From Carcharhinus amblyrhynchos (lineage: Eukaryota), in the NCBI GenBank assembly GCA_965287045.1, contig OZ336873.1, forward strand, positions 37,324,001 to 37,388,000: 64,000 nucleotides of DNA, read 5' to 3'. This document shows, piece by piece, positions 39,401 through 42,400 of the stretch (its first letter is position 1; the number at the start of each line of letters is the position of its first letter). Made by a program: the position numbers.

Positions 39401-42400
39401 TGCCGAGAGAGGTAAGGATGGAAATAGCACAGGTATTGTTTCCAACTCTCCCTAGATATGGGGTTTGTGCCTGAGGAGTGGAGAATTGCAAATGCCACAA
39501 CCTTGTTCAAAAAACAACACAAGGATAAATTCAGCAATTGCATACAAGTCAGTCAGTTTAATCTCACACTGAGGGAAAACTTTGAAACAATAATTTGGGA
39601 TAAAATTAACAGTCACCTGGACTAGTCTGGAATAAATGGTTAAAGTAGTAAGAAGCCTCACAACACCAGGTTAAAGTCTAACAGGTTTATTTGGTAGCAA
39701 AAGCCACCAGCTTTCAGAGCACTTGCTGCCCCTTTGTCAAGTGAGTGGGAGCTCTATTCACAAACAGGGCACGTTAAGACACAAACTCAATTTACAGAAT
39801 AATTGATAATAACAGTGAGAACCAGGCTGATTGCAAAAGGTTCAAAGGGGAAGTGAAAAAGGAAGTCATTTATTCATTACTCTGTAAGTCATTACTCTGA
39901 AAGCTAGTGGCTTTTGCTACCAAATAAACCTGTTGGACTTTAACCTGGTGTTGTGAGGCTTCTTACTGTGTTTACCCCAGTCTAATGCCAGCATCTCCAC
40001 ATCATAAATAATTAAAGCCAGCACGAATTTGTTAAATGCAAATTGTGTTTTATTAGCTGGATTGAGTTTTTTTGATGAAATAAGAGAGAGGAGTGATGAC
40101 GGTAATGCAATCGATTTGGTGTGGATGGACCTCCAAAGGGCATTTGATAAAGTGTTTAATAGATGTTGGCGAGGCCAACAGACACATGGGAACAACATGA
40201 CCAGCAAGTTCCCCCACCCAAACTTCTAACCACCCTGACCTGGAAAAATATTGCCATTCCTTCACTGTCACTGCATCAAAATCCTGGAACTCCCTCCCTA
40301 ACATCATAAAATCCCTACAGTGCAGAAGGAGGTCATTTGGCCCATCGAGTCTGTACTGACACTCTGACAGAGCACCTTACTCAAGCTCTGTCTCTGTAGC
40401 CCCGTGCATTTATCCCACTAATTCCCCTATACATCTTTGGACACTAAGGAGCAATTTAACATGGCTAATTCATCTAACCTGTTCATATTTGGACTGTGGG
40501 AGGGAACCAAAGTACCCGGAGGAAACCCACACAGACTGGGGGAGAAGGTACAAATAGACAGTCACATAAGGCTGGAATTGAACTCAGTTCCTGGTGCTGT
40601 GAGGCAGCAGTACTAACCAATGTACCACAATGCTGCTTATGTGCCACCCTGCTGCCCAGTTGGTATAGTATATCCATCGCTGTGGATGTACCTAGACCAC
40701 ATGGACTGCAATGGTCCAATAAGACAGCTCATCACTGCCTTCTCAGGGACACTTAAGAATGAGCAATAAATGCTGGCCTAGCCAGTGATTCCCACATCCA
40801 ATGAATAAATGAAAAGAAGAATAATATTGACTGAGTAACACAAAACTAAGAGTAATAGTGAATGGTGGTTGTCCTGACTGGAGATGGATTTAAAGGGAGT
40901 TCTCTAAGGATTAGTACTAAGTAAACTGCTTTTAGGTATACATTGCATTATTTGCAACATTCACAGGTGATATAAAACTTGAAATTATTGAGAATTGTGA
41001 GTAGGATAGTGATAGACTTTAATAATATATCGAAAAGCTGTTGGAGTGGAAGAGACATGAAGCAGAGGCCCTCATAACATTTAAGAAGTATTTGGATGTG
41101 CACTTGTGATGCCAAGGCATACAAGGCTTTGGGCCAATAGGATTTGAATTGTTGTGTCGTTTGTTTTTGTCCAGTGCAGGTATGATGTGCTGAAGGGCCA
41201 TTTTCTGTGCTAAATACCCCTATGACATGTCAGATGAAATTTAATGCAGAGAAGTGTGAACTGACACATTTCACTCGGAAGAACGTGAAGAGATAAGATA
41301 AATTAATGGTGCAATCGATAGGGAATATAGGAACAGAGGACCCAGGGGATATATGTGCGCAGATCATTGAAGGTGGAAAAGCAGGTTGAGAAAATGGTTA
41401 AAAAGGCACATGAGATCCTTAGTGGTCAATTTATTTCTTATTCCTTCAAAATTTGCCTTATATGAATTTAAAACCTCGGTTTGTGATATTCCCTTCTCCC
41501 AATCAAAAACTAACACCAAATATTAGCTAACTGTTAGCACAGTGCTTAGCACAGCACCAAAGACCTGGGTTCAATTCCGACCTTGGGTAACTGTGTGAAA
41601 TTTGTACGTGTCTGCGTGCATTTCCTCTGGATGCCCTAGTTTCCTCCCACATGTGCAAGTTAGGTGATTTGGCCATACTAACTTGCCCCTTAATGTCCCA
41701 AGATGTGTAGGTTAGGGGGATTAACATGGTGAATATGTGGGGTTATGGGGATAAGGCAAAGGGGTGAGCCTGGGTAAGATGCTCTGACAGAGTTGGTGCA
41801 GACTCGATGGGCTGAATGGCCTTCTTCTGCATTGCAGGAATTGTATGATGATTCCATTTGATATGGCAGAATTTTCCCATCCCCCCGCCATGGGAATCGT
41901 AGCAGGCAGGACACGGATCATGCAAAGGTCCTTTGGCCTCGGGTGGGATTTTCTGGCATTGGGGGCGAGTGTGGCTAAAAATCCTGCCCTATGAACTATT
42001 TGTGAGATGCTTACTTACCATCAGGTCATTAACTAATTCTGTTTCACTGTTCATCATTAAGTTTAGTATGGTCAATTCTAGTGTAATTTCTTACACGTAT
42101 TTGGATAGAAATTTCTGGAACTATAATGTTCCATTAATAACACTCCATATTATTAACTTATTAAAAATCTAACAATGTACAGAGTGAAAGAGATGTGTCA
42201 TGAGCTCTGATCCTTGCTGGAGTTTTGTCCTGTCCTTCCATTAGCTTCTCCAAAATTGATAACGGTCAATGCTACACTCAAGGTTTCCTACTGAAGTTAA
42301 TGGCCATCATGAAATTCCTGGTTTTATGATATTAATATGGATTATTCTTGCCGTGGCCATTTAGAGCTAGCAACGACATAGAGGACTGTGTAAATGGTGT

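What the first reader, a model, noticed from the sequence alone, without database searches (positions are those of the whole stretch)
39646..40003. Fold-back Penelope insertion that captured 61 bp of nearby DNA at its inversion junction
Seen: between the two inverted PLE arms, 39804-39864 is a copy of 38695-38754, which lies 1.1 kb upstream in the host CR1 (same strand, 2 substitutions and 1 indel). The entry point shares TGAT microhomology with the expected PLE continuation. A patchwork follows: catttattc (reverse complement of target-site sequence 39630-39638) and tcattactctg twice. Inference: the insertion was completed through several template switches, by the PLE RT or by polymerase-theta-type repair, onto local DNA or nascent RNA. 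This would let PLEs duplicate neighbouring host sequence.
Basis: partly seen in the sequence, partly recalled or inferred. Interest (0 to 1): 0.7.

Follow-up and report, generated by a model that had tools for sequence, protein, structure and literature searches.

The report
Retrotransposon fold-back with borrowed neighbouring DNA
A small hairpin-shaped retrotransposon insertion in a shark-like genome carries, at its middle seam, a 61-base copy of DNA lying 1.1 kb away, an ordinary-looking scar of sloppy joining during insertion rather than a new kind of element.

Summary
39646-40003 is a 358-bp fold-back insertion of the 3' end of a Penelope-like element (PLE), flanked by a 14-bp target-site duplication, inside an old CR1-like LINE. 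Between its inverted arms, 39804-39864 copies 38695-38754 on the same strand, with 2 substitutions and 1 extra G. This is the only match in the window (E 8e-23). A 30-nt stuttered patch follows.

The fold-back and the one-sided 36-nt tail are standard, published PLE anatomy. Three of six other PLE loci in the window are also fold-backs, and none carries a filler.

No eukaryotic genome collection was available, so the decisive comparison with distant CR1 copies could not be run. An indirect clock test favours the neighbouring copy. Filler and source differ as little as the two PLE arms do (2/60 against 2/73). The host CR1 is older than a nested SINE that is itself about 10% diverged. The likelihood ratio is about 4-13 against a then-active CR1 RNA, and over 100 against another old copy.

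The likeliest mechanism is that two converging cDNAs were joined by microhomology-primed, template-switching synthesis. Which polymerase acted, and whether the template was DNA or RNA, remains open.

Close analogues are in print: L1 twin priming with template switches, polymerase-theta templated insertions, and PLE capture of host DNA. Interest is modest.

The parts
38399..41438 (+). Old, decayed CR1-like LINE (host), interrupted by a SINE, the PLE and further insertions
   Evidence: tblastn with 120 CR1-like proteins: linker hits at 38734-38958, RT hits at 39440-39634, 40016-40190 and 41226-41438. Identity is 33-43% aa, with in-frame stops and frameshifts.
38695..38754 (+). Source segment in the CR1 linker region
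   Evidence: Matches the filler. Its frame-1 translation aligns with the conserved motif upstream of the linker helix in 4 ray/unnamed CR1 proteins.
39048..39352 (+). SINE nested in the host CR1, between source and insertion site
   Evidence: At least 19 related copies in the window. It is 12.7% (38/299) from a leave-one-out consensus of 9 window copies, and 10.1% (28/277) at non-CpG sites. This sets a minimum age for the host CR1.
39632..39645 (.). Target-site duplication, left copy
   Evidence: 12/14 identical to 40004-40017. Joining the flanks restores the CR1 RT reading frame.
39646..39803 (-). Left PLE arm (element sense on the minus strand). It starts at the proximal end ...CTTACT and has no tail
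   Evidence: Alignment with six other copies. The same end point occurs in the loci at 151, 12447 and 22642.
39804..39807 (+). TGAT microhomology shared by the PLE continuation and the CR1 source
39804..39864 (+). Filler: copy of 38695-38754
   Evidence: 2 A-to-G differences and 1 extra G.
39865..39894 (+). Patchwork. It contains a 9-mer that is the reverse complement of 39630-39638, then a 15-nt unit repeated in tandem; the second unit runs into the right arm
   Evidence: (family D10).
39895..39967 (+). Right PLE arm (sense), inverted copy of 39647-39719
   Evidence: 2 mismatches in 73.
39968..40003 (+). One-sided PLE tail, 36 nt, ending ...CCACATC
   Evidence: Shared with the copies at 13647-13680, 22781-22814, 32713, 33632 and 61674-61710. 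It matches the published 30-40-bp tail (PMC8557442, PMC11167929).
40004..40017 (.). Target-site duplication, right copy

Best explanation
A Penelope-like element inserted its 3' end into an AT-rich site of an old CR1-like LINE.

As shown in vitro for a lizard PLE, both target strands were nicked 14 bp apart and both 3' ends were extended by reverse transcription of PLE RNA. The bottom strand started at the distal start site, giving the right arm with its 36-nt tail. The top strand started at the proximal start site, giving the left arm without a tail. Each broken end then carried a cDNA of the same polarity, and the two had to be joined head to head.

The joining was not direct. One 3' end annealed by 4 nt (TGAT on one side, GGAA/AAG on the other) to the same CR1 copy 1.1 kb to the left and copied 60 nt. 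The template was either the single-stranded plus strand exposed by resection or a plus-sense transcript of the locus. The end then dissociated, and two or three further short, stuttering rounds of priming closed the gap. These rounds left the 15-nt tandem and the 9-nt snap-back copy of the target site.

Shown: the anatomy, the microhomologies, PLE identity and the CR1 origin of the filler.
Inferred: that the donor was this local copy, that copying happened during insertion, and the order of the switches.
Open: the polymerase (PLE RT or polymerase theta) and the nature of the template (DNA or RNA).
For: - Anatomy and coordinates.
- PLE identity:
  - The arms align with copies contiguous with an ORF 78-85% identical to shark proteins. 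Those proteins carry RVT_1 (P0127, 36.5 bits) and a sub-threshold GIY-YIG match (P0142, 20.2 bits against a cut-off of 22.6).
  - A hammerhead core pattern occurs in 5 other copies against 0 expected.
  - The tail is on one side only.
- Mechanistic frame: PMC11167929 (abstract and passages read) reports cleavage and extension of both strands, two adjacent internal RT start sites, the tail as the stretch between them, and an AT-rich target preference.
- Fold-back is the habit of this family: 3 of 6 other PLE loci in the window are fold-backs.
- Local donor:
  - The filler and source differ at 2 of 60 sites, the same as the arms at 2 of 73 (Fisher p = 1.0).
  - The host CR1 must be older than its nested SINE, which is 10.1% diverged at non-CpG sites.
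  - P(2 or fewer differences | copy of a then-active master) is 0.026, likelihood ratio 13. If that divergence is shrunk by a quarter, the figures are 0.087 and 4.
  - P(2 or fewer | another old copy) is 2e-4.
  - The filler also shares with the source residues that depart from positions conserved in CR1 proteins: Cys where 12 of 20 have Trp, and Lys where 37 of 41 have Glu. Both are also 9-10 nt short against a spacing kept in 41 proteins.
- Patchwork: the 9-mer reverse complement of the target site has a chance of 0.0012. Iterated patchwork fillers are the described signature of templated end joining (PMC12426944, passages read).
Against: - No other copy of this CR1 family covering the source segment was available. 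The window holds none. So the direct test, whether distant copies match as well, is missing.
- The extra G makes the filler read in frame across a point where the host copy is frameshifted. Both substitutions are synonymous third positions in that frame. This is what a copy of an intact CR1 RNA would look like. By chance under local copying it has a probability of roughly 0.05.
- The clock rests on 2 differences in 60 nt and on a SINE consensus built from only 9-10 window copies.
- Polymerase-theta fillers are generally under 25 bp and templated close to the break (PMC12426944). 60 nt from 1.1 kb away is atypical for that enzyme.
- The timing cannot be separated from a slightly later repair event.
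Confidence: 0.55

Rival explanations
1. The filler was reverse-transcribed from a CR1 RNA, or copied from a CR1 copy, located elsewhere in the genome. Its resemblance to the neighbouring copy reflects family membership only.
For: - The filler reads as an open frame of 20 codons where the host copy is frameshifted.
- Both substitutions are synonymous third positions.
- RT template switches onto a second RNA are documented for L1 (PMC11702581, passages read).
- CR1-like LINEs are abundant here.
Against: - The clock test: P(2 or fewer differences in 60) is 0.026-0.087 for a then-active master and 2e-4 to 4e-3 for another old copy.
- The filler shares with the source the non-consensus Cys and Lys and the shortened spacing.
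- The host copy is heavily decayed, at 33-43% aa identity to the nearest proteins with stops and frameshifts.
Confidence: 0.2
2. The PLE first inserted as a plain fold-back. Later the palindrome centre broke and was repaired by microhomology-mediated, templated end joining that copied nearby DNA.
For: - The patchwork with a 4-nt microhomology, the stutter and the snap-back are the repair signature described in PMC12426944.
- Filler/source divergence (2/60) is statistically indistinguishable from, and nominally slightly above rather than below, arm divergence (2/73).
Against: - A 1.2-kb near-perfect PLE palindrome with no spacer survives in the same window. Its arms are 95-96% complementary, so it is older than this insertion. 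Such centres are therefore not obligatorily broken.
- The left arm stops exactly at a PLE position carrying the TGAT microhomology, with no sign of lost flanking PLE sequence on the right. This fits joining of cDNA ends as well as it fits a break.
Confidence: 0.12
3. The CR1 piece was already part of the PLE source element, for example a non-autonomous fold-back family that captured it once and then spread.
For: PLE families with captured host spacers exist (PMC3846280, passages read).
Against: - 0 of 6 other PLE loci in the window carry it.
- Three relatives show a different PLE continuation at that point.
- The same clock argument applies as for the first rival.
Confidence: 0.05
4. It is an assembly or read artefact, such as a chimeric fold-back read.
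For: PLE tandem and inverted structures are known to trouble assemblies (PMC8557442, passage read).
Against: The arms differ at 2 of 73 sites and the filler at 3 positions from its source, and a target-site duplication flanks the whole unit. An artefact would give identical copies and no duplication.
Confidence: 0.02

Closest known systems
Canonical PLE insertion architecture: an inverted 5'-truncated copy plus a one-sided 30-40-bp tail (Craig et al. 2021, PMC8557442; Frangieh et al. 2024, PMC11167929)
   Same: Inverted arms, a tail on one arm only, the other arm ending exactly where the tail begins, an AT-rich target, a target-site duplication, and hammerhead-type core motifs in relatives.
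   Different: The seam holds 91 nt of non-PLE sequence, 61 nt of it copied from the host LINE. The three other fold-backs in the window join directly.
L1 twin priming with template switching and templated insertions (PMC11702581; Ostertag and Kazazian 2001 as cited there)
   Same: A preserved target-site duplication, two inverted cDNA segments, microhomology at the inversion junction, and occasional extra templated segments between them.
   Different: In L1 the two segments are adjacent parts of one RNA, with gaps or overlaps of 1-10 bp. Here both arms copy the same 73 nt, so two templates or two passes are needed. There is no poly(A), and the start sites are fixed internal positions rather than microhomology-chosen.
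Polymerase-theta templated insertions (MMEJ review, PMC12426944)
   Same: Priming on 4 nt or less, a copy of flank sequence, dissociation and re-priming, a patchwork of direct and inverted pieces, and bases of unassignable origin.
   Different: Length and distance differ: 60 nt from 1.1 kb away, against typically under 25 bp from next to the break. The ends here are cDNAs.
PLE capture of host DNA (Arkhipova et al. 2013, PMC3846280)
   Same: Host sequence is enclosed between PLE terminal repeats. Template jumps and self-priming were proposed, and palindromes occur at inverted junctions.
   Different: Those spacers are 0.9-1.5 kb or whole genes, their origin is unmapped or distant, and they are carried by the element. 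Here the piece is a 61-nt one-off filler with an identifiable donor 1.1 kb away.

Membership tests
Penelope-like element insertion | Sequence continuity with an element encoding RT plus a GIY-YIG endonuclease | tested here: met
   The arms align with the loci at 151-994 and 12447-13680. Their adjoining ORFs are 78-85% identical to shark proteins P0127 and P0142. P0127 has RVT_1 at 36.5 bits, above the cut-off. P0142 has GIY-YIG at 20.2 bits, below the cut-off of 22.6, E 7.6e-4. This copy itself holds no ORF.
Penelope-like element insertion | A 30-40-bp tail on one end only | tested here: met
   The 36-nt tail at 39968-40003 is on the right arm only. The left arm ends where the tail would begin. 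The feature is defined in PMC8557442 and PMC11167929.
Penelope-like element insertion | An adjacent inverted 5'-truncated copy | tested here: met
   39647-39719 against 39895-39967, 71/73 complementary.
Penelope-like element insertion | A hammerhead ribozyme motif in the terminal repeat | tested here: inconclusive
   The core pattern is present in 5 other copies against 0 expected. In this copy the first core box is mutated. Rfam gives no hammerhead match, which is expected for the minimal PLE form (PMC4209133).
L1-type twin priming | The two inverted segments are adjacent parts of one RNA, with only a short gap or overlap | tested here: not met
   The arms overlap by 73 nt of the same element sequence. 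The L1 figure of 1-10 bp comes from PMC11702581.
L1-type twin priming | A discrete target-site duplication is preserved | tested here: met
   14 bp, 12/14 identical. A second copy of the family has an exact 14-bp duplication.
Polymerase-theta templated insertion | Short microhomology at entry, a template in the flank, and iterated patchwork | tested here: met
   TGAT entry, a donor 1.1 kb away in the left flank, the 15-nt stutter and the 9-nt inverted copy of the target site.
Polymerase-theta templated insertion | Typical size (under 25 bp) and proximity of the template | tested here: not met
   60-61 nt copied from 1.1 kb away. The size norm is taken from PMC12426944.
Polymerase-theta templated insertion | Dependence on polymerase theta | not testable with these tools
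   This needs genetics or biochemistry.
RT template jump onto a second RNA | The second template is RNA | not testable with these tools
   The only lead is that both substitutions are A in the source and G in the filler on the plus strand. This is the direction expected from A-to-I editing of a plus-sense RNA, but n = 2 and the reading is post hoc.

The most novel reading that the evidence does not exclude
PLE fold-back intermediates may regularly sample templates from their immediate chromosomal neighbourhood. Junction fillers would then be a genome-wide fossil record of how the two PLE cDNAs are joined.

At this locus the template may have been a nascent plus-sense transcript. Both substitutions are A to G, as A-to-I editing would give. 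The orientation also fits extension of the right-arm cDNA on plus-sense RNA.

A collinear 13/14 match between the target site (39628-39641) and 38522-38535, at almost the same offset as the filler and its source, might mean the two regions were paired during the event.
Probability: 0.12. Interest if true: 0.55.

Novelty: new member of a known kind. Interest (0 to 1): 0.3.

Why it matters
How PLEs complete integration after first-strand synthesis is not known. [quoted passage not shown] A seam with an identifiable local donor, defined microhomologies and a stutter is a small natural record of that step. It suggests an end-joining or template-switching resolution of two cDNA-tipped ends.

On its own it is one anecdote and a 61-bp scar. 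It becomes useful only if a genome-wide survey shows that such fillers are common and preferentially local.

Tried and rejected
- **Family consensus for the host CR1.**
  - A word-index search with the 83-aa linker translation, stops as X, gave 0 hits from 26 candidates.
  - An exhaustive phmmer search of 1.84 billion representatives gave 0 hits at E of 0.001 or better.
  - A search with the better-preserved RT ORF at 18756-19808 gave 5760 CR1-like proteins, of which 120 were listed. All are only 33-43% identical to the host. They settle the frame and the conserved columns but not the subfamily consensus.
- **Other copies of the source segment in the window.** None were found by blastn with word size 7, or by tblastn with the RT ORF and with the 120 proteins.
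- **Rfam hammerhead detection.** Nothing at the gathering score over the whole window. Nothing relevant at E up to 1 for 38000-41000 or E up to 10 for 22560-22860; the only hits were chance miRNA-like hairpins on the palindrome.
- **Pfam on the short window ORFs.** 12756-13133 and 710-1081 gave no family. Identity was obtained through the homologues instead.
- **A 1.1-kb local duplication.** Between the collinear matches, identity at offsets 1100-1115 is at background level, 5-50% per 20 nt, so this was rejected.
- **Literature.** No paper holding both 'Penelope-like' and 'filler' appeared among the 15 listed of 214. Searches likewise gave no report of mapped junction fillers in PLEs. This covers open-access full text only.
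- **Not used.** Genome contigs is prokaryotic, so it has no bearing.
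Full report
**What is there**

The window holds no N. The nearest named proteins of its repeats come from sharks such as Mustelus asterias, Scyliorhinus torazame, Heptranchias perlo and Chiloscyllium punctatum. I do not take it for human.

Every coordinate in the finding checks out against the sequence.
- 39646-40003 is a 358-bp insert flanked by a 14-bp target-site duplication, 39632-39645 and 40004-40017, with 12/14 identity.
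- Joining the two flanks restores the reading frame of a reverse-transcriptase domain.
- The insert has four parts:
  - a left arm at 39646-39803;
  - a 61-nt filler at 39804-39864;
  - a 30-nt patch at 39865-39894;
  - a right arm at 39895-40003.
- 39647-39719 and 39895-39967 are inverted copies with 2 mismatches in 73.

**The filler**

- 39804-39864 equals 38695-38754 on the same strand, with two substitutions (A in the source, G in the filler) and one extra G in a G-run.
- As a 64-nt alignment it scores E 7.7e-23 against the 64-kb window. The next best hit is a 12-mer at E 0.4.
- The switch point is TGAT. Three relatives of the element (loci at 151, 12447 and 13502) also read TGAT there and then continue with unrelated PLE sequence. 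The CR1 source starts with TGAT.
- The patch contains a 9-mer that is the reverse complement of 39630-39638 at the target site. The empirical chance is 0.0012 for a 20-nt stretch and 0.028 for a 400-nt flank.
- The patch also holds a 15-nt unit repeated in tandem (14/15 identical), whose second copy runs into the right arm.

**What the element is**

- Six other loci of the same family lie in the window: 151-994, 12447-13680, 22642-22814, 32713-32838, 33632-33768 and 61628-61710.
- Two of them continue upstream into an ORF that is 78-85% identical to shark proteins.
  - One of these proteins has RVT_1 at 36.5 bits.
  - Another has RVT_1 plus a GIY-YIG match just below the cut-off, 20.2 against 22.6 bits.
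- A hammerhead-type core pattern occurs in five copies, with 0 expected from 100 shuffles.
  - In the copy under study the first core box is mutated.
  - Rfam recognises none of them. This is not surprising for the minimal PLE form described in PMC4209133 (passages read).
- Copies end in one of two ways.
  - Some end with a 34-37-nt terminal stretch finishing in CCACATC(A).
  - Others end exactly where that stretch begins. Four inverted or tail-less ends stop there: this left arm and the loci at 151, 12447 and 22642.
- That terminal stretch is the published PLE tail.
  - It is a 30-40-bp extension on one end of the insertion, next to a frequent inverted 5'-truncated copy (PMC8557442, passages read).
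  - Frangieh et al. 2024 (PMC11167929, abstract and passages read) showed in vitro that a lizard PLE protein cleaves and extends both target strands. It starts reverse transcription at two adjacent internal sites, with the tail as the stretch between them, and it prefers AT-rich DNA.
- The locus fits this. The right arm started at the distal site, the left arm at the proximal site, and the target is AT-rich.
- The fold-back is therefore ordinary for this family. Three of the six other loci are fold-backs, and all three join without foreign filler:
  - a near-perfect 1.2-kb palindrome centred at 13040/13041;
  - a direct junction near 22740;
  - a mini fold-back with an exact 14-bp duplication.

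**What the host is**

- tblastn with 120 CR1-like proteins (from the 5760 found) places linker and RT segments of one decayed CR1-like LINE between 38399 and 41438. Identity is 33-43% aa, with stops and frameshifts.
- A SINE is nested at 39048-39352.
- The source segment lies in the linker between the endonuclease and RT domains. Its frame-1 translation aligns with a motif conserved in four ray or unnamed proteins, and the downstream frame aligns from 38734 onward.
- CR1 is therefore the donor family and the PLE seam is the recipient.

**Is the donor the neighbouring copy?**

The direct test, comparing the filler with all CR1 copies of the genome, could not be run. Two protein searches meant to supply a family consensus found nothing. 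I therefore used a clock argument.
- Sequences created at the insertion differ little:
  - the arms at 2/73;
  - the filler and source at 2/60 plus one indel;
  - Fisher p = 1.0 for arms against filler.
- The host CR1 must be older than its nested SINE.
  - The SINE differs from a leave-one-out consensus of nine window copies at 38/299 sites.
  - At non-CpG sites it differs at 28/277, which is 10.1%.
  - Neither the source nor the filler contains a CpG.
- If the filler had been copied from a then-active CR1 master, it should differ from this old copy by at least about 11%.
  - P(2 or fewer differences in 60) is 0.026, and the likelihood ratio for the local copy is 13.
  - If the SINE figure is shrunk by a quarter to allow for a crude consensus, these become 0.087 and 4.
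- For another equally old copy the probability is 2e-4 to 4e-3.
- The filler also shares with the source a Cys where 12 of 20 aligned CR1 proteins have Trp, and a Lys where 37 of 41 have Glu.
- Both lack 9-10 nt relative to a spacing kept almost without gaps in 41 proteins.

**Evidence the other way**

- With its extra G the filler reads as an open frame across the point where the host copy is frameshifted.
- Both substitutions are synonymous third positions in that frame. That is what a copy of an intact CR1 RNA would look like.
- Two readings fit the indel.
  - The family may be 9 nt short in frame, and the host later lost a G.
  - Or the host may be 10 nt short, and the filler gained a G at or after copying.
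- I cannot choose between them without closer relatives. Under local copying I put the chance of this pattern at roughly 0.05 (my estimate, not a computed test). It lowers my confidence but does not outweigh the clock.

**Mechanism**

- After both strands are extended, each broken end carries a cDNA of the same polarity, and the two 3' ends must be joined head to head.
- The filler has the same orientation as its donor on the left flank. Two routes fit this:
  - the right-arm cDNA anneals by GGAA/AAG to the resected plus strand of the left end, or to a plus-sense transcript, copies down to TGAT and then pairs with the TGAT-ending left-arm cDNA;
  - the left-arm cDNA is extended on the minus strand.
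- The stutter and the inverted 9-mer point to repeated priming, release and re-priming.
- This is the described signature of polymerase-theta templated insertions: patchwork, minimal priming and bases of unassignable origin (PMC12426944, passages read).
  - That review gives the usual size as under 25 bp.
  - So 60 nt copied from 1.1 kb away is atypical for that enzyme.
  - Nothing here decides whether the PLE RT or polymerase theta did the copying.
- L1 shows the nearest parallel: 5'-inverted insertions with preserved duplications, microhomology at the inversion junction, an example of a template switch between the two cDNAs, and templated insertions at insertion sites (PMC11702581, passages read).
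- Unlike L1 twin priming, the two arms here copy the same 73 nt. So there were two templates or two passes.

**Rivals**

- A break at the palindrome centre repaired later cannot be excluded, because the divergences are indistinguishable. An older zero-spacer palindrome has nevertheless survived in the same window.
- A filler carried by the source element is unlikely, since 0 of 6 other loci have it.
- An artefact is unlikely, because the copies are diverged and a target-site duplication frames the unit.

**Novelty**

- Fold-back, tail and hammerhead motifs are known.
- PLE capture of host DNA spacers, proposed template jumps and palindromic inverted junctions are in print (PMC3846280, passages read).
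- I found no report of a mapped, local junction filler in a PLE. Three searches covered open-access full text only, and I did not consult supplements.
- I file it as a new member of a known kind of event and score interest at 0.3.

**Unexplained**

- The target site 39628-39641 matches 38522-38535 at 13/14 positions, at offset 1106. The filler and its source sit at offset 1109.
- Between the two matches there is no similarity.
- The expected number of such collinear matches is 0.0004-0.002, but the test is post hoc.
- The left arm happens to be as long as the gap between the two upstream segments. I have no mechanism for this.

Noticed in passing
window 38522-38535 and 39628-39641: A 13/14 direct match between the PLE target site and a site 160 nt upstream of the filler's source, at offset 1106. 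The filler and source sit at offset 1109. Expected chance hits are 0.0004-0.002, and there is no similarity in between. Unexplained.
   Followed up: partly
window 12447-13680: A near-perfect 1.2-kb PLE palindrome. The arms, 12447-13040 and 13041-13646, are 95-96% complementary with zero spacer, and a tail sits at 13647-13680 on one side only. Both arms encode the C-terminal part of the PLE protein.
   Followed up: partly
window 22642-22814 and 61628-61710: Two more PLE fold-backs joined directly with a few nt of microhomology. The second has an inverted arm of only about 18 nt and an exact 14-bp target-site duplication at 61614-61627 and 61711-61724.
   Followed up: partly
window 39804-39864 vs 38695-38754: Both substitutions are A in the source and G in the filler on the plus strand. 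This is the direction expected from A-to-I editing of an RNA template, but n = 2 and the reading is post hoc.
   Followed up: no
window 452-994 (minus strand): A PLE copy with an ORF remnant 78-85% identical to shark proteins (P0127 from Heptranchias perlo, P0142 from Mustelus asterias). It includes the stretch that gives the GIY-YIG match. Its 3' end at 151 lacks the tail.
   Followed up: partly
window 18756-19811: An open 351-aa CR1-like RT frame (RVT_1, 123.5 bits). It is up to 70-71% identical to unnamed proteins and 60% to a Mobula birostris protein. It belongs to a younger LINE family than the host of the finding.
   Followed up: partly
window 37603-38049: Two blocks of a G-rich 16-nt-period minisatellite just upstream of the host CR1 (family D1).
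   Followed up: no
window-wide, e.g. 1105-1409, 4710-5013, 29824-30109, 32190-32474: At least 19 copies or fragments of one SINE family in 64 kb, each about 10-13% from a window consensus.
   Followed up: partly
proteins P0129, P0130, P0132, P0134, P0143 and others: Several annotated shark host proteins (for example XRCC5, a PPP1R12A-like protein, septin 5a and USP8 isoforms) match the PLE endonuclease ORF. This suggests PLE fragments were swept into gene models.
   Followed up: no
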